A stretch of DNA of 51,444 nucleotides, taken from NCBI GenBank assembly GCA_029941685.1, contig JAPYTC010000003.1, forward strand, positions 1 through 51,444, written 5' to 3'. Numbering within the stretch: position 1 is the stretch's first letter; the number at the start of each line of letters is the position of its first letter. The stretch is from Planctomycetota bacterium. Its GTDB lineage: Bacteria; Planctomycetota; UBA1135. A program made the translations under genes and the position numbers. The notes beneath the pieces are model-generated. The model had not been told where the DNA came from. It was given only the letters and a program-made list of their open reading frames with translations, and searched no databases. Below are positions 45,568-51,444 of the stretch, in pieces.

Positions 45568-46800
45568 ATGTCATCAGCAAACAGCACAAAAATGGGCTCC
45601 TTTTCCGAAAAGATGGGGCAAATCGAAGACTCAGCCACCTTATCGGTGATGGGAAAGGTAAAGGGCTTAATTGCCCAAGGGGTTGATATTATAAATCTTA
45701 CTGCCGGCGAACCGGACTTCAGCCCGCCACAATGTGTTAATGATGCTGCAATCAAAGCTGTTCAAAATGGCATGGGGCGCTACACGCCCTCGGCTGGCTT
45801 AATCGAATTACGCGATATCGTCGCTAAATCGATTCGCAATGAGATTGGGATAGAATATCAAGCCGAAAATGTCGTGGTCTGTAATGGCGCCAAGATTGCG
45901 ATTGTACAGGCGCTAATGGCCATTCTTAACGATGGCGACGAGGTGCTCATCCCCTTCCCGTGCTGGACGTCATACCCTGAAATGGTCAAGCTTGCCGGCG
46001 GTGTACCTGTAATGGTAGCTTGTGATGAAAACATGTTGCCTGATATGAGCGCGCTTGATGCCGCATGTAACAAGCGAACTGTAGCGATTCTTATTAACAC
46101 GCCATCCAACCCAACTGGTGTGGTTTTCCCTAAAGATTTCACGCGCGAATTAGGTGAATGGTGTTTGGCAAAAGGGCTACGCATCATTAGCGACGAGATG
46201 TATTGCGCGCTAACCTACAACGGCATCGAACATCACTCGCCGTTAAAGCTAGTACCTGAACTACAGAAAACCAGTGCCTGGATTGGCGGTATGAGTAAAT
46301 CATTCGCAATGACGGGATGGCGAATGGGATTCTTCGCGGGCCCAAAAGACTGGGCCGCAATTGTCGGACGCATTCAATCGCAATTAGCTGGATCACCCAA
46401 TGCCATTGCGCAACAAGCTTCTATGGCTGGGTTAAGCCACGGCATGGCAGAACGCGAAGCGATGCGTTTAGAGTTTGAAAAACGCAGTAAATTAATCGCC
46501 GCCGGGATTGATGCGATTGAGGGCATCAGCTGCCCCGAACCACAAGGTGCTTTCTATTGCTTCGTCGACATTAGCAGCCTCATTGGTCTCACTGATGAAA
46601 GTGGTATCACCATCAACAGCGGGGACGACTTCTCTAAGGTTTTACTTGAAGTGGATAAAGTGGCCACGATTGGCGGCAGCGCTTTTGGCGCAACCAATCA
46701 CTTTAGAATTTCTTTCGCTGCATCTGAGACTGAGCTCGAGCGTGCGTTAGAAAAATTATCTTCGCGAGTTAGCACGTTGTTAACGTCCGGGAAAAACTGA
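45568..46800 (+). CDS. Class I pyridoxal-phosphate-dependent aminotransferase (aspartate aminotransferase-like)
   Basis: 410 aa. INLTAGEPDF, NTPSNPTGVV and SKSFAMTGWRMG (PLP Lys). Confidence 0.88.
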   Translation: MSSANSTKMGSFSEKMGQIEDSATLSVMGKVKGLIAQGVDIINLTAGEPDFSPPQCVNDAAIKAVQNGMGRYTPSAGLIELRDIVAKSIRNEIGIEYQAENVVVCNGAKIAIVQALMAILNDGDEVLIPFPCWTSYPEMVKLAGGVPVMVACDENMLPDMSALDAACNKRTVAILINTPSNPTGVVFPKDFTRELGEWCLAKGLRIISDEMYCALTYNGIEHHSPLKLVPELQKTSAWIGGMSKSFAMTGWRMGFFAGPKDWAAIVGRIQSQLAGSPNAIAQQASMAGLSHGMAEREAMRLEFEKRSKLIAAGIDAIEGISCPEPQGAFYCFVDISSLIGLTDESGITINSGDDFSKVLLEVDKVATIGGSAFGATNHFRISFAASETELERALEKLSSRVSTLLTSGKN

Positions 46801-48128
46801 GCACACACCTGTTGAGCTAGTTTCATTTCGCGCTCGTCGGCGCCCAAAACGTGCACGTAGAATTTCCACATACGGCCGTATGATTGCTCGAGGTCGAGCA
46901 GTCGCGGCACCTTGTCACTGTGTTCTGAAAGTGGCGTCAATTGTTCGTCGCCGGGCCAATGCACCATAATTTTGGCTTGCTTCAATTGCATCTTCGACGA
47001 TGGGCAATACAACATGAATGGTATTAGCCTGCCAGTCAACTTTTGCAGTTCGGCGGTCATTTCTGATTCAACGCGTCGACGATGATTCGCGGAACCGGCC
47101 CCGAAATATGTGCTCACCAACTCTTCTTGAGCCTGGGTGTTGGCGTAAACCGGATACACCGCTGCGCGTTTAGGTAATTGGCGACGCTTAATTGCGCGCA
47201 AATACATATCGAGTAATTCGCGTGAACCTGATTCGTTGATTGTGGCGTTGGTTAATAAATCAAACAACCCGGCGTCGGTAGAAACTTGTAGCTGCTCAAA
47301 AGTAACTGCATTTTCTAGCAACACTATTTCAACGGCTTTCGCCACCAGCGAGCCCGCCGCAATTTTTGCATGGTGGTAGTAAACTCGCTCGGAGAAATAA
47401 AAGCGAGCTTCGAGACAACGAATAACCTCACTTAATACCGCCTCTTTTAAGTAACCATTGCGCCCGAGGTCTACATAAAGTTGCTGCGTTGGACGGTCGA
47501 CACGAAACACGCTGAACACGCGCTCATCGTACTCGATTTTGAGTCCAGTGAACATCGCGTCACGTTTTAGATAATCGAGGCTATCAGCATCAATCGTTCC
47601 GCTAACCAAGTCTTTCCAGAACTTAGGCACGCGCTTGTTTTCGGGGACTAAAGATGGAGCCAAAATCGACAACACATCTTCTTTGGCACCGGTGCGCTCT
47701 AGCGCACGCCCTAATGAGGTATTCCGCGACAACATGTTTGCAAAGCGCTCAGGGATGTCGTGACGCGGCAATAACCCTGTTTGATCTTCAATGTTATGCC
47801 CAAAAGGCAAATGTGTCGCATCATGAACTAAAGCGGCCAAACGCACTATGCGCTCTCCGTGTTGATCGAACCCGTCGAGGCGACTATCGTCACGGCGATC
47901 ACGTTCGAAGTTAATCGAGTTAATCATACGTGTTGCCAAATGCGCAGTACCAATCGAGTGCTCAAATCGCGAATGCTGTGCCCCCGGGTAAATTAAATAA
48001 GTAGCACCAAGCTGACGAACATTGCGCAAGCGCTGCATTTCTTCGGTGTCAAGAATCGACATCTCTTCTTTGGTAAGGGGGATATCGCCATGAACCGGGT
48101 CGCGGATGATAGTGTCGTATCTAAGCAT
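46698..48128 (-). CDS. HD-domain phosphohydrolase (COG1078 / dNTP-triphosphohydrolase-like)
   Basis: 476 aa. RFEHSIGTAHLA, ALVHDATHLPFGH and DADSLDYLKRD. ATG overlaps the rluB stop by 8 nt. The 3' end overlaps the convergent aminotransferase by 103 nt. Confidence 0.82.
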   Translation of the reverse strand: MLRYDTIIRDPVHGDIPLTKEEMSILDTEEMQRLRNVRQLGATYLIYPGAQHSRFEHSIGTAHLATRMINSINFERDRRDDSRLDGFDQHGERIVRLAALVHDATHLPFGHNIEDQTGLLPRHDIPERFANMLSRNTSLGRALERTGAKEDVLSILAPSLVPENKRVPKFWKDLVSGTIDADSLDYLKRDAMFTGLKIEYDERVFSVFRVDRPTQQLYVDLGRNGYLKEAVLSEVIRCLEARFYFSERVYYHHAKIAAGSLVAKAVEIVLLENAVTFEQLQVSTDAGLFDLLTNATINESGSRELLDMYLRAIKRRQLPKRAAVYPVYANTQAQEELVSTYFGAGSANHRRRVESEMTAELQKLTGRLIPFMLYCPSSKMQLKQAKIMVHWPGDEQLTPLSEHSDKVPRLLDLEQSYGRMWKFYVHVLGADEREMKLAQQVCAQFFPDVNNVLTREDNFSNARSSSVSDAAKEILK

Positions 48129-49011
48129 CTGATGAAGTGTTTCGCGCCATTGCCACTAACTCGTCACGCTCTTTTTTGGTTAACGGACGGATTGCACCAC
48201 GTTTTAATTTTGCGATACCGAGCTTGCCGATGCGAACTCGTTTTAAGCGTTTCACTCGCATATCGAATCTTGCCAACACTCGACGAACTTCGCGGTTGCG
48301 ACCTTCGCTAATGGTCACTTCAATCGTTGCCCCCTTTTTCGACGAACGCATTAAGCGCAATGACTCTGGCACAACTTTTACCCCATCGATATAGGCGCCT
48401 TCGCGTGCCTTTTCAATATCAGCATAGGTCACTGCATGGTTGATGTAACAAACATATGTTTTACGAATGCCGTAAGAAGGGTGGGTAATGATTTGGGAAA
48501 AATCACCGTCGTTGGTTAACAGTAGCAAGCCCTCGGACTCCTTATCAAGGCGGCCAACAGTATGTACACGGCTAGGCACCATCGAGTCGACCAAATCGCA
48601 AACCCGTGTGTCGGTTTCGCGAGGATCGTTGGTGCACAACACACCTTTCGGTTTGTAAAACAAATAGTACAAACGACGCTCGACAGAAATTTTCACATCA
48701 TCAACACGGACGTCATCGCCGTCCATAACTCTATAGCCTGGTTCGGAGACTATTGTGCCGTTTACGCTAACTTCGCCGCCAAATATTTTTTCATCGCACT
48801 TGCGGCGTGAATCAACACCCTGCTCGGCTAACCATTTGTTTAAGCGTACACCAACGACTTCAGCCTTCTCTGACTTTAGGCCTTTACGCGCGCTAGAAGA
48901 GGCCTCGATTGTTGCCGCAGCCAGACGTGCCTGACGTTTGGTGCGTGTTGTTTTACCGCGGCCACTTCCGGCAACAGGTTTACGTTTGGGTTTTTTGCGG
49001 CTTGACGCTAT
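48121..49011 (-). CDS. rluB: Pseudouridine synthase, RsuA/RluB family, with an S4 domain and a basic N-terminal extension; start codon non-canonical or unresolved
   Basis: Catalytic core YLFYKPKGVLCT and VGRLDKESEGLLLLTNDG. The track ORF starts at ATG 48726, but the same frame upstream encodes a clear S4 domain (VRLNKWLAEQGVDSRRKCDEKIFGGEVSVNGTIVSEPGYRV) and a KR-rich leader. I found no ATG/GTG/TTG between the in-frame TAA (49015-17) and 48726. The end coordinate 49011 assumes the ATA codon (MASSRKKPKRKP...). Product confidence is high; start confidence is low. Confidence 0.7.
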   Translation of the reverse strand: MASSRKKPKRKPVAGSGRGKTTRTKRQARLAAATIEASSSARKGLKSEKAEVVGVRLNKWLAEQGVDSRRKCDEKIFGGEVSVNGTIVSEPGYRVMDGDDVRVDDVKISVERRLYYLFYKPKGVLCTNDPRETDTRVCDLVDSMVPSRVHTVGRLDKESEGLLLLTNDGDFSQIITHPSYGIRKTYVCYINHAVTYADIEKAREGAYIDGVKVVPESLRLMRSSKKGATIEVTISEGRNREVRRVLARFDMRVKRLKRVRIGKLGIAKLKRGAIRPLTKKERDELVAMARNTSSDA

Positions 49012-49014
49012 GAC

Positions 49015-50022
49015 TTAATGTGCTGTAGCGCGAATGAAATCGAAATTTTCTTCGCTAGTAGATTGAACCTGCACGCCATTTAAGCATGCAGGAATTAATA
49101 CGGTGTCGCCATACTTCACGGGCATGGATTCGAATTCGCCATTGGTGGCGACCAATTCGCCGACTCCCGAAACTACAACCAAAATAATCGCCTTGTTCTT
49201 TTTGGCGACGACAGCACCTTGTTCGCCGTGACGATGTAAGTGCATTGTGAAGTATTCTCCGCCACATAATGTCACGCATTCTTTGTCATAAACTGGTGAC
49301 GACAATTCGCGGCGCTCGGGATTAGAAGGCAGTAAGTCGTAGTTGATAACATCTAACGATTCTTGCAGATGTGTTTCACGCGGTTTACCGTTGAGGCCAA
49401 GGCGGTCCCAGTCGTACATGCGGTAGGTTACATCTGAAGTCTGTTGAATTTCGCACAACACTGTCCCAGCGCAGATGGCGTGCGTCTGTCCCGCCGGAAT
49501 ATAAACACAATCGCCTGCAGACACATTTTGCTCGACGAGGTAATCACGTACTTTGGACGTAGGCGCATCGACAGCAAATTGCTGTGCCTCGGTGCCTGGG
49601 CGTAAACCACAAATCAGAGTGGCGTCTTCAGCACTATCTAAAATGTACCACGCCTCGGTTTTCCCTATTCCTGTAGGTGACTTTTCGCCATCAGGGGGGT
49701 GCACTTGCACTGACAAATTATCGCCAGCATCAAGCAGTTTCACCAACAAGGGGAAACGCCCGTCGGCGGTAGCCTTGGACGCGCCTAAAATCGCATCACC
49801 ATGATCTTCCATTAACTCGCGCAGCGACTTGCCAGCATATCCGCCGTTAACAATGTTCGTCTCTTGCCCTGGGTAGTCGCTTAACTCCCATGTTTCGCCA
49901 AGTGGGCCACTGAAAGGTAACTCTATCGATAACGATTCGACCAAACGCTGGCCTCCCCATACTTTTTCAACGAGGATGCGTTCAAATAGCAGTGGCTGCA
50001 TAGGTGCGGTAGACGAACTCAC
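49015..50022 (-). CDS. manA: Type I phosphomannose isomerase (mannose-6-phosphate isomerase, cupin)
   Basis: 335 aa. VEKVWGG, LSVQVHP, GKTEAWYIL and THAICAG. The start is GTG 50022 or ATG 50001. Confidence 0.88.
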   Translation of the reverse strand: MSSSTAPMQPLLFERILVEKVWGGQRLVESLSIELPFSGPLGETWELSDYPGQETNIVNGGYAGKSLRELMEDHGDAILGASKATADGRFPLLVKLLDAGDNLSVQVHPPDGEKSPTGIGKTEAWYILDSAEDATLICGLRPGTEAQQFAVDAPTSKVRDYLVEQNVSAGDCVYIPAGQTHAICAGTVLCEIQQTSDVTYRMYDWDRLGLNGKPRETHLQESLDVINYDLLPSNPERRELSSPVYDKECVTLCGGEYFTMHLHRHGEQGAVVAKKNKAIILVVVSGVGELVATNGEFESMPVKYGDTVLIPACLNGVQVQSTSEENFDFIRATAH

Positions 50023-50026
50023 ACCC

Positions 50027-50482
50027 TTATTTTATCAATCTTTTTAATATGCGCCTTAAAAATCTAGCGCCACTTAATCGCGGACGACGCCGACGATGAT
50101 AAAACTCGCTGGCATCCATACTGTGGCACACTTTTGGGTCTTGGCCGGCTTCACTCATTAGCTGCTGCCACTCTTTACCGTGTGACTTGACCCGCCCATG
50201 GCGTGCCGTCGCCACTAAATGCGCCAACTCGTGAATCAACACAACGTCTATATGTTGTGGATTTTCCGCCAACAAGCGTGGGTTAAGCTCGACCGTTTGC
50301 TGCATCAACAGCGCCCGTCCGCCACTAGTGCGTAGGCGGCCATTAAAGACGATTCTCAGTTGCGGTAATGCGTCAACTGCATTCCATCGCGCCAACACCT
50401 CGCCGGCCGCAGCAAGCAATACTGCGTCACTGTAATCACGCTTTAATTGCTCGACGCTTATTTTTTGCGTCCTTTGCACCAC
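50027..50482 (-). CDS. SprT-like zinc-metallopeptidase-fold protein
   Basis: 151 aa. LIHELAHLV (HExxH) preceded by RTSGGRA, typical of SprT-like domains. The GTG start overlaps the nagA end and is uncertain. Confidence 0.7.
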   Translation of the reverse strand: MVQRTQKISVEQLKRDYSDAVLLAAAGEVLARWNAVDALPQLRIVFNGRLRTSGGRALLMQQTVELNPRLLAENPQHIDVVLIHELAHLVATARHGRVKSHGKEWQQLMSEAGQDPKVCHSMDASEFYHRRRRPRLSGARFLRRILKRLIK

Positions 50483-51444
50483 ACCTGCCCTATTTTGTTT
50501 TCTGAAACGATGTACTCAACGAAATCCGCCCGACGTCCAACAGCTAAGCGTCCACAGTCGCCCAACATGTCCCCCGCAACCTGACAGCCCATACGCACCA
50601 CCTGTTCAAAGCTAAGGACGCCATCTCGATGCGCGCGCAATAGTAACTCCGGTAACGAATCTAAAGTGCCTCCAAAATTTCCACGGCGATCGATTGCTGC
50701 GGCCCCACTCCGAGACAACAACTGTCCGCCAGATTTAAAGCTGTTGGCGCGCATTCCGGCGTGTGACAAATTGTCTGAACACGCCATTAATTTATTTTTC
50801 AGCCGCGGCGTGTTCGCCCACAAATTTAATGTGTCCGCTTCGACATGAAGCATGTCTGGGATAACGGCTGCGTAATCGATGTCGCCGCGCATAGCTACGC
50901 CGATTGGTCCTAACTCGCGAGCGCTCAATGGCAACATGCGATTACCTAAATGAGTCGCTGCTATCTTGCCGTTAGCGCGTAGCATTTGGCAATCTAAGGC
51001 CGTTGCGGAACTGTGGCCGACTGATGGCATCACGTTATTGGCGCGCAACACTTCGGCTACTTCAAGCGCACCGTCTAACTCTGGTGCGAGGGTCGTCATC
51101 GACAGCCAACCGCCGCAGGCATCCACAAACTCTTGAGCTGCCTTGACGCTGGGCTTGCGCATCGCGGCTTTGGGCAAGGCGCCCGACATATTACGAGCTA
51201 CAAATGGCCCTTCGATATGCCACCCCGCAATATGAGTACGTGCGCCGCGCATTGTCGACCATTTATTCCAATTGCGCGCGGCCTTTTGCAAGCCATCGCT
51301 TGTCGTTGGGTAAAACCCTGCCAAAGCAGTGGTCACCCCAGTACTCGCCAGAAGCATAGTCATTTTATGTAGACGCGCTGGAGTTCCTTCGCCGCAATCT
51401 ACCCCACCGTAACCATGAAGCAAGGTGTCAACAAAGCCCGGCAT
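50458..51444 (-). CDS. nagA: N-acetylglucosamine-6-phosphate deacetylase (5'-partial, continues beyond the window)
   Basis: PGFVDTLLHGYGG, HIEGPF, TLAPE, VGHSSAT and THLGNRM. The family normally has about 50 aa before the PGF(I/V)D motif, so the ATG at the window edge is probably internal. Confidence 0.88.
   Translation of the reverse strand: MPGFVDTLLHGYGGVDCGEGTPARLHKMTMLLASTGVTTALAGFYPTTSDGLQKAARNWNKWSTMRGARTHIAGWHIEGPFVARNMSGALPKAAMRKPSVKAAQEFVDACGGWLSMTTLAPELDGALEVAEVLRANNVMPSVGHSSATALDCQMLRANGKIAATHLGNRMLPLSARELGPIGVAMRGDIDYAAVIPDMLHVEADTLNLWANTPRLKNKLMACSDNLSHAGMRANSFKSGGQLLSRSGAAAIDRRGNFGGTLDSLPELLLRAHRDGVLSFEQVVRMGCQVAGDMLGDCGRLAVGRRADFVEYIVSENKIGQVWCKGRKK

What the first reader, a model, noticed from the sequence alone, without database searches (positions are those of the whole stretch)
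48727..49017. Pseudouridine synthase S4 domain encoded upstream of any canonical start codon, in frame with manA across a single TAA
I translated the minus strand codon by codon from the manA stop (TAA, 49017-49015) to ATG 48726. All 96 codons are open and read VIASSRKKPKRKPVAGSGRGKTTRTKRQARLAAATIEASSSARKGLKSEKAEVVGVRLNKWLAEQGVDSRRKCDEKIFGGEVSVNGTIVSEPGYRV. This contains an unmistakable S4 RNA-binding domain that RluB/RsuA enzymes need.

The stretch contains no ATG, GTG or TTG. The only near-cognate candidates are ATA (49011-09, the second codon after the manA stop), CTG (48924-22) and ATC (48909-07). The manA and rluB frames are identical (both coordinates are 1 mod 3).

Three explanations are possible: initiation at a rare codon, with ATA giving a natural-looking MASSRKKPKRK N-terminus; termination-reinitiation coupled to manA; or a recent ATG>ATA mutation or base-call error. 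TAA readthrough producing a ManA-RluB fusion is formally possible but unlikely.
Basis: seen in the sequence. Interest (0 to 1): 0.55.

Follow-up and report, generated by a model that had tools for sequence, protein, structure and literature searches.

The report
Pseudouridine synthase gene starting at ATA
An ordinary rRNA pseudouridine synthase gene in an uncultured planctomycete has ATA where all nine same-genus sequences from other species have ATG, so gene callers cut off its RNA-binding S4 domain, although the full protein is probably still made from the ATA.

Summary
After the manA stop (TAA 49017-49015, minus strand) a 297-codon frame runs to TAG 48123-48121. It has no ATG, GTG or TTG before ATG 48726. 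Pfam places an S4 domain at residues 56-102 and the catalytic domain at 116-248.

All nine same-genus sequences from other species read TAA-NNN-ATG at this junction. The window reads TAA-GTC-ATA, so ATA 49011-49009 sits at the ancestral start.

A sequencing error is unlikely. Products 97-100% identical to the window's were called as 201 or 242 aa on 18 contigs from NCBI, Logan, JGI/IMG and ENA, and never as 296 aa. I could not fetch their DNA.

The 96 upstream codons look constrained. They show no excess amino-acid change, they score as coding, and residues 57-96 are identical across strain variants. The ATA has the weak-structure, A-rich context of real starts in this nearly SD-less genome. 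ATG97, CTG31 and ATC36 look like internal codons.

Best reading (about 0.6): initiation at ATA, probably aided by coupling to manA 3 nt upstream.

In passing: infC starts at ATA in all six genus genomes. tuf in this genome has CTG where 29 of 29 family genomes have ATG. About 1,200 orthologue pairs gave no further clear case.

This is a new member of a known kind.

The parts
49015..50022 (-). manA (class I mannose-6-phosphate isomerase). Its stop TAA is at 49017-49015, 3 nt before the ATA.
   Evidence: NCBIfam TIGR00218 scores 128 bits against a cut-off of 116.2. Pfam finds PMI_typeI_cat. Translation.
49009..49011 (-). ATA codon at the ancestral start position, and the proposed start of the full-length protein.
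   Evidence: All nine same-genus sequences from other species have ATG in this column, after TAA-NNN. The -30..+33 fold energy is -7.3 kcal/mol, with A 0.33 and G 0.17 in the 12 nt upstream, as at real starts of this genome.
48121..49011 (-). Proposed full-length CDS of the RsuA/RluB/RluF-family pseudouridine synthase (296 codons plus TAG).
   Evidence: Open frame. TIGR00093 scores 143 bits against a cut-off of 109.3. It is 85-88% identical over its full length to 296-298-aa orthologues.
48850..49008 (-). Basic N-terminal tail (residues 3-55; the RKK..RKP..GRGK motif is conserved in the family).
   Evidence: Alignments. Two private amino-acid changes in this lineage, against 0-7 in four ATG-bearing lineages.
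48709..48849 (-). S4 RNA-binding domain (residues 56-102).
   Evidence: Pfam PF01479, E 1.9e-10. Residues 57-96 are identical in the 242-aa calls of strain variants. No private amino-acid change in residues 56-96.
48847..48849 (-). GTA (Val56). This codon appears to be GTG in some close strains, where callers start a 242-aa product.
   Evidence: P0123, P0126, P0129 and P0006 begin V/M-RLNKW. The window codon is GTA.
48724..48726 (-). ATG (Met97), the first canonical start and the start of the 201-aa database call. It is probably not the real start.
   Evidence: Leu or Gln in the sister species. Fold energy -15.9 kcal/mol and G-rich upstream sequence, as at internal ATGs (-14.1 +/- 3.9).
48271..48669 (-). 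PseudoU_synth_2 catalytic domain. The GRLD motif has its Asp at 48546-48544.
   Evidence: Pfam PF00849, E 1.2e-22. Motif located.
46698..48128 (-). Downstream HD-domain phosphohydrolase gene. Its ATG (48128-48126) overlaps the synthase's end by 8 nt.
50027..50482 (-). Upstream SprT-like gene of the same minus-strand gene chain. An amidohydrolase gene (50458-51444) precedes it.
   Evidence: Pfam. No promoter-like or terminator-like site on the minus strand between 50100 and 48100.

Best explanation
In this species the ancestral ATG start of an RsuA/RluB-family rRNA pseudouridine synthase has been replaced by ATA. This is a real G>A substitution shared by the close strain variants. The full-length enzyme (basic N-tail, S4 domain and catalytic domain) is still made by initiator-tRNA initiation at the ATA, presumably at reduced efficiency. 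The initiation region keeps its weak structure and A-rich, G-poor leader. Ribosomes terminating at the manA TAA only 3 nt upstream probably help by termination-reinitiation.

Shown: the homology of ATA to ATG, the presence of the truncated call in many assemblies, the lack of excess amino-acid change upstream, and the start-like context.

Inferred: that ATA itself is the codon used, that coupling contributes, and that output is lower than from ATG.
For: 1. Nine of nine same-genus sequences from other species read TAA-NNN-ATG where the window reads TAA-GTC-ATA.

2. In the 90%-identity cluster, every product 97-100% identical to the window's was called as 201 aa or 242 aa. These calls sit on 18 contigs from NCBI, Logan, JGI/IMG and ENA. 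The only 296-aa members are 94-94.5% identical, and one (P0124) has the N-terminus of sister genome G002.

3. Pairwise dN of the 96 upstream codons between the window and the sisters is 0.12-0.22. Pairs of ATG-bearing species at similar distance give 0.16-0.26.

4. The window lineage has 2 private amino-acid changes and 5 private synonymous changes upstream. Residues 57-96 are identical across strain variants, while the next 201 residues differ at 2-6 sites. The upstream stretch scores 0.22 per codon for coding potential.

5. The genome is almost SD-less: 13% of starts have a core SD, and positions -11 to -1 are A-rich and G-poor. The ATA context matches real starts. ATG97, CTG31 and ATC36 match internal codons.

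6. ATA is used as a start in this genus. infC has no canonical start before its N-domain, and a conserved ATA precedes it in all six genus genomes.

7. Literature. [quoted passage not shown] It gives about 10-30% of AUG at natural S. aureus AUA starts (PMC13009471). Termination-reinitiation works only with overlaps or very short spacers (PMC10666635).
Against: There is no direct evidence of translation: no proteomics or ribosome profiling, and the organism is uncultured.

That those strains read ATA, rather than some other non-start codon, is inferred from the protein calls.

Synonymous sites between species are saturated, so the constraint test cannot date the loss. A recent loss followed by little decay would look the same.

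The ATA lacks the GAGG Shine-Dalgarno that accompanies the infC ATA.

Some strains appear to have GTG at Val56, which could serve as an alternative canonical start there.
Confidence: 0.6

Rival explanations
1. Start loss has truncated the enzyme. Only the 201-aa product from ATG 48726 is made, an S4-less synthase comparable to RluE, and the upstream 96 codons are a recently orphaned remnant.
For: ATG97 is the only canonical start. The NCBIfam RluE model, a family member of about 206 positions, aligns to residues 118-279, i.e. without the S4 part. Saturated dS means that a recent loss cannot be excluded.
Against: Met97 is Leu or Gln in all sister species. Its context is that of an internal codon. 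The product would begin inside the last part of S4. The loss predates the split of strain variants that differ at 2-6 of 201 residues, yet residues 57-96 are unchanged in all of them. The window lineage shows no excess amino-acid change upstream.
Confidence: 0.15
2. Translation starts at another non-canonical codon inside the 96-codon stretch (CTG 48924, ATC 48909 or another). This would give an S4-containing enzyme with a shortened basic tail.
For: Both are near-cognates. More distant relatives (P0007, P0008; 255 aa) carry only about 13 residues before S4, so the tail is dispensable in some lineages.
Against: Both codons sit in structured, G-rich, internal-like contexts, with fold energies of -14.1 and -16.1 kcal/mol. 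They lie 90 nt or more from the manA stop, beyond the effective reinitiation range (PMC10666635). The tail residues 3-30 show no relaxation.
Confidence: 0.1
3. The ATA is a sequencing or assembly (MAG consensus) error, and the gene really starts with ATG.
For: The genome is a fragmented MAG (299 contigs, 83% complete). A single G>A change is the smallest possible error.
Against: Truncated calls occur for three sequence variants on 18 contigs from four independent sources. No full-length call exists at 97% identity or above. In the sister species the callers do pick the ATG and give 296 aa.
Confidence: 0.05
4. TAA readthrough produces a ManA-synthase fusion protein.
For: The two genes are in the same frame.
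Against: The same in-frame TAA-NNN-ATG layout occurs in all sister species, which have their own ATG, so the shared frame follows from the 3-nt spacer. TAA is conserved in all ten sequences. No Rfam match and no unusual structure occur at the junction (fold z-score 0.09). I did not search for natural fused forms.
Confidence: 0.02

Closest known systems
Natural AUA/AUU start codons in bacteria (E. coli infC AUU; S. aureus infC, ccpN and citZ AUA; PMC13009471)
   Same: A near-cognate codon sits at the position of a conserved start. The rest of the gene is intact. Expression is expected to be lowered and sensitive to IF3.
   Different: The S. aureus cases and this genus's own infC carry a strong or extended SD. 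This ATA has none and instead lies 3 nt after an upstream stop. It is specific to one species rather than conserved, so there is no sign that it is a selected regulatory device.
RsuA/RluB/RluF family of rRNA pseudouridine synthases (TIGR00093; S4 plus PseudoU_synth_2)
   Same: The domain order is S4 followed by the catalytic domain, with the GRLD motif. The protein is 85-88% identical to full-length planctomycete orthologues.
   Different: No equivalog model (RluB, RsuA or RluF) reaches its cut-off, so the rRNA target is unassigned. The protein carries a 55-residue basic N-tail typical of this planctomycete family.
Termination-reinitiation coupling of adjacent genes (PMC6728339, PMC10666635)
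   Same: The stop and the next start are 3 nt apart, there is no SD, and the genes lie in a tight co-directional chain.
   Different: The commonest layouts are overlaps of 4 or 1 nt with canonical starts.

Membership tests
RsuA/RluB/RluF-type pseudouridine synthase (TIGR00093) | Family HMM above its curated cut-off | tested here: met
   143.1 bits against a cut-off of 109.3.
RsuA/RluB/RluF-type pseudouridine synthase (TIGR00093) | N-terminal S4 domain followed by the PseudoU_synth_2 domain | tested here: met
   S4 at residues 56-102 and PF00849 at 116-248 of the stop-to-stop frame. This holds only if translation starts upstream of residue 56.
RsuA/RluB/RluF-type pseudouridine synthase (TIGR00093) | Catalytic Asp in the GRLD motif | tested here: met
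   GRLD at residues 154-157, with the Asp codon GAT at 48546-48544. That this Asp is the catalytic one rests on my knowledge of the family.
RluB (23S rRNA pseudouridine 2605 synthase) equivalog NF007976 | Equivalog HMM above its cut-off | tested here: not met
   100.6 bits against a cut-off of 290. RsuA scores 117 against 275 and RluF 116 against 318. 'RluB' is a database label, not a tested assignment.
Bacterial genes with a functional near-cognate (AUA) start codon | The near-cognate sits at the position homologous to the canonical start of orthologues, with no canonical alternative upstream of essential domains | tested here: met
Bacterial genes with a functional near-cognate (AUA) start codon | The region between the near-cognate and the first canonical start is under purifying selection | tested here: inconclusive
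   There is no excess dN or private amino-acid change, and residues 57-96 are identical among strains. However, dS between species is saturated, and strain DNA for codons 2-55 could not be obtained.
Bacterial genes with a functional near-cognate (AUA) start codon | Initiation at that codon shown experimentally (N-terminal peptide, initiation-arrested footprints or a reporter) | not testable with these tools
   The organism is uncultured and no such data were available.
Termination-reinitiation coupled gene pair | Overlap or very short distance between the upstream stop and the downstream start, on one transcript | tested here: met
   The spacer is 3 nt. No promoter-like or terminator-like site lies on the minus strand in between.
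Termination-reinitiation coupled gene pair | Downstream translation depends on upstream translation | not testable with these tools
   This needs a two-reporter assay.

The most novel reading that the evidence does not exclude
This planctomycete species tolerates near-cognate start codons unusually well. Within one species, two conserved housekeeping genes switched from ATG to a near-cognate: this synthase (ATA) and the only tuf gene found in the 83%-complete MAG (CTG). In both, the only canonical starts would delete an essential domain, namely S4 or the EF-Tu P-loop. If EF-Tu, normally one of the most abundant cell proteins, is really made from CTG, start-codon discrimination in this SD-less lineage must differ from the E. 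coli picture of 1-3% efficiency.
Probability: 0.15. Interest if true: 0.65.

Novelty: new member of a known kind. Interest (0 to 1): 0.4.

Why it matters
Practically, this is an annotation error with consequences. Public databases hold this enzyme as 201-aa or 242-aa fragments that lack some or all of the S4 domain, because gene callers accept only ATG, GTG and TTG.

Biologically, it is a clean natural case of a start codon replaced by ATA across a wild population with the gene otherwise intact. Together with the CTG start of tuf in the same species, it offers a test bed for how start codons are chosen in bacteria that do not use Shine-Dalgarno sequences.

Tried and rejected
- A 25-base pattern around the ATA found nothing in metagenome contigs. 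The search for related loci returned only relatives at 88% identity or below. Records very near the window's genome may be left out of both scans.
- Looking up spurious antisense ORFs and manA as a back door to strain sequences found nothing in the collection.
I used pairwise dN/dS and counts of private changes instead.
- Pairwise dS between species is saturated, at more than 1.5 or undefined.
- The first genome-wide orthologue screen was too noisy, with 195 and 196 flags. After refinement and reading by eye, the other ATG-versus-ATA/ATC flags turned out to be antisense shadow ORFs or conserved leaders upstream of a shared ATG.
- The initiator tRNA is identical in G000 and G002, so no tRNA-based explanation applies.
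- Private IF3 substitutions in G000 are mostly conservative and cannot be interpreted.
- An aragorn 'tRNA-Pyl(CTA)' on contig C4 has a mismatched acceptor stem and no counterpart in the fetched part of G002. I rejected it as a false positive.
- No Rfam family and no unusual fold occur at the junction.

Full report
**Observation**

On the minus strand, manA ends with TAA at 49017-49015. The same frame then stays open for 297 codons, down to TAG at 48123-48121. The first ATG, GTG or TTG in that frame is ATG 48726-48724, at codon 97.

Pfam places an S4 domain (E 1.9e-10) at residues 56-102 and the PseudoU_synth_2 catalytic domain (E 1.2e-22) at 116-248. The family model TIGR00093 passes its cut-off. 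The RluB, RsuA and RluF equivalog models do not. The protein is therefore an RsuA/RluB/RluF-family rRNA pseudouridine synthase with an unassigned target. Two further ATA codons inside S4 were missed, but they do not matter.

**How unusual the stretch is**

I scanned the whole assembly: 2.0 Mb, 299 contigs, 83% complete, a planctomycete MAG by the names attached to its closest database relatives. Among 1,668 ORFs of at least 150 codons, six have 80 or more start-free 5' codons. This gene is the only one of the six whose upstream and downstream parts both score as coding, at 0.22 and 0.27 per codon.

**What the ATA is**

- Four other genomes of the same genus read TAA-NNN-ATG at this junction, and five metagenome contigs at 86-88% protein identity do the same.
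- The window reads TAA-GTC-ATA.
- ATA 49011-49009 is therefore the ancestral ATG with a G>A change at the third position.
- Met97 is Leu or Gln in the relatives, so it is not a conserved start.

**Error or real?**

The 90%-identity protein cluster that holds the window's 201-aa call has 14 members.

| Identity to the window (last 201 aa) | Called length | Proteins | Contigs and sources |
|---|---|---|---|
| 100% | 201 aa | P0122 | 5 contigs; NCBI, Logan |
| 99% | 201 aa | P0130 | 5 contigs; JGI/IMG, ENA; one of 293 kb |
| 99% | 242 aa | P0123, P0126 | 5 contigs; JGI/IMG, NCBI |
| 97-97.5% | 201 aa | P0133 | 1 contig; Logan |
| 97-97.5% | 242 aa | P0006, P0129 | 2 contigs; Logan, JGI/IMG |
| 94-94.5% | 296 aa | P0124, P0132 | 4 contigs; NCBI, JGI/IMG, Logan |

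- The first five rows add up to 18 contigs, all with truncated calls.
- The 242-aa products start at Val56, evidently a GTG there; the window has GTA.
- The 296-aa members are more distant, and P0124 has the N-terminus of sister genome G002.
- The five remaining members are shorter fragments (103-183 aa) that do not begin at a start codon.
- Gene callers do choose the ATG in the sister species.

The absence of any full-length call among the close variants therefore means that the canonical start is missing across this species.

**Is the upstream part still translated?**

- Pairwise dN over codons 3-96 between the window and its sisters is 0.12-0.22. ATG-bearing species pairs at similar distance give 0.16-0.26.
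- In a five-lineage comparison, the window lineage has 2 private amino-acid changes and 5 private synonymous changes upstream. The intact lineages have 0-8 private amino-acid changes.
- Residues 57-96 are identical in all strain variants, while the following 201 residues differ at 2-6 positions.

Two caveats apply. dS between species is saturated. Strains with GTG56 translate S4 from a canonical start anyway.

**Which codon starts translation?**

I took 364 start sites that are anchored as the first canonical start in both this genome and sister genome G002.

- Only 13% of them have a core SD. Positions -11 to -1 are A-rich and G-poor.
- Their -30..+33 window folds weakly, at -8.7 +/- 4.5 kcal/mol. 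Internal ATGs fold at -14.1 +/- 3.9.
- This resembles the SD-independent initiation described for Bacteroidia (PMC6847099).

| Candidate start | Fold energy, kcal/mol | A fraction, 12 nt upstream | G fraction, 12 nt upstream |
|---|---|---|---|
| ATA, codon 2 | -7.3 | 0.33 | 0.17 |
| CTG, codon 31 | -14.1 | 0.17 | 0.33 |
| ATC, codon 36 | -16.1 | 0.25 | 0.33 |
| ATG, codon 97 | -15.9 | 0.25 | 0.33 |

The ATA therefore looks like a start, and the other three look internal.

The ATA lies 3 nt after the manA stop. No promoter-like or terminator-like site lies between them on the minus strand. No Rfam match or unusual fold occurs there. Termination-reinitiation is efficient only at overlaps or very short spacers (PMC10666635), so of the candidate codons only the ATA is well placed to benefit from it.

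AUA supports initiation at about 1-2% of AUG in one E. coli reporter, and the near-cognates as a group at 0.02-3% in another (10.1101/063800). It gives about 10-30% of AUG at natural S. aureus AUA starts (PMC13009471). A low-copy catalytic enzyme could plausibly tolerate such a drop; that is my inference.

**Context in the same genome**

1. infC has no canonical start before its N-domain. In all six genus genomes a conserved ATA precedes it, and other genera of the family have ATC or ATT. A GAGG motif lies upstream in nearly all of them. This is the classical IF3 arrangement, and it suggests that ATA is used as a start in this lineage.

2. tuf has CTG at L060 725-727, where 29 of 29 other family genomes and 8 of 8 genomes of other families in the order examined have ATG. 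The surrounding DNA is nearly identical to that of the sisters.
   - The first canonical starts would remove the P-loop.
   - A strain variant with one amino-acid difference also carries the truncated 360-aa call, in NCBI, JGI/IMG and ENA.
   - No full-length EF-Tu closer than 95% identity was listed.

3. I compared about 1,200 orthologue pairs between this genome and 1.6 Mb of G002. After reading the flags by eye, no further clear case remained in G000, and G002 gave none in the first screen and only ambiguous flags in the second. The initiator tRNA is identical in the two genomes.

**Verdict**

This is a real, species-wide ATG>ATA start substitution in an otherwise intact gene. The protein is most likely still translated from the ATA, with help from coupling to manA. 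That makes it a new example of a known phenomenon, and the database fragments are misannotations.

The more novel reading is that this species handles near-cognate starts unusually well, with tuf as the striking case. My evidence does not exclude it, but it rests on only two genes.

Noticed in passing
G000 contig C177 (locus L060), CTG at 725-727; ORF 668-1936 on the + strand: The only tuf (EF-Tu) gene found in this genome has CTG where 29 of 29 other family genomes, and 8 of 8 genomes of other families in the order examined, have ATG. The flanking DNA is nearly identical to that of the sister species. It follows a tRNA Thr-Tyr-Gly-Thr cluster. The first canonical starts (TTG at residue 38, ATG at residue 45) would delete the P-loop, and databases hold it as a 360-aa fragment. 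A strain variant with one amino-acid difference (P0136; NCBI, JGI/IMG, ENA) has the same truncated call. Two more distant truncated calls also exist: P0161 (91% identity) and P0182 (89%, 7 contigs).
   Followed up: partly
G000 contig C17 (locus L061), minus strand 1261-1998; ATA start at L061 1998-1996: infC (IF3) has no canonical start before its N-domain. A conserved ATA precedes it in all six genus genomes, and other genera of the family have ATC or ATT. A GAGG Shine-Dalgarno-like motif lies about 8-11 nt upstream, which is rare in this nearly SD-less genome. The -5..+5 context AAGTC-ATA-GC is identical to that of the synthase ATA in this genome, possibly by chance.
   Followed up: partly
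G000 contig C235 (locus L062), minus strand 398-1114: A protein whose sequence looks thioredoxin-like (Pfam found no family). Its open frame is preceded by TGA-CCA-CCA-TGC, which could read U-P-P-C. It may be a selenoprotein cut short by gene callers. The genome has a tRNA-SeC on contig C261.
   Followed up: no
whole genome G000 (364 start sites anchored as first canonical start in both G000 and G002): Only 13% of starts have a core SD within -20..-4. Positions -11 to -1 are A-rich (about 0.4) and G-poor (about 0.11-0.22). Start regions fold about 5 kcal/mol more weakly than regions around internal ATGs. This points to SD-independent initiation like that of Bacteroidia.
   Followed up: yes
window 48121-48128: The synthase stop and the HD-phosphohydrolase start overlap by 8 nt (ATGCTTAG). 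The chain amidohydrolase - SprT-like - manA - synthase - HD is tightly packed on the minus strand.
   Followed up: partly
G000 contig C4, 33675-33751: aragorn calls a tRNA with a CTA anticodon ('Pyl'). Its acceptor stem is poorly paired, and the fetched part of sister genome G002 has no counterpart, so it is probably a false positive.
   Followed up: yes
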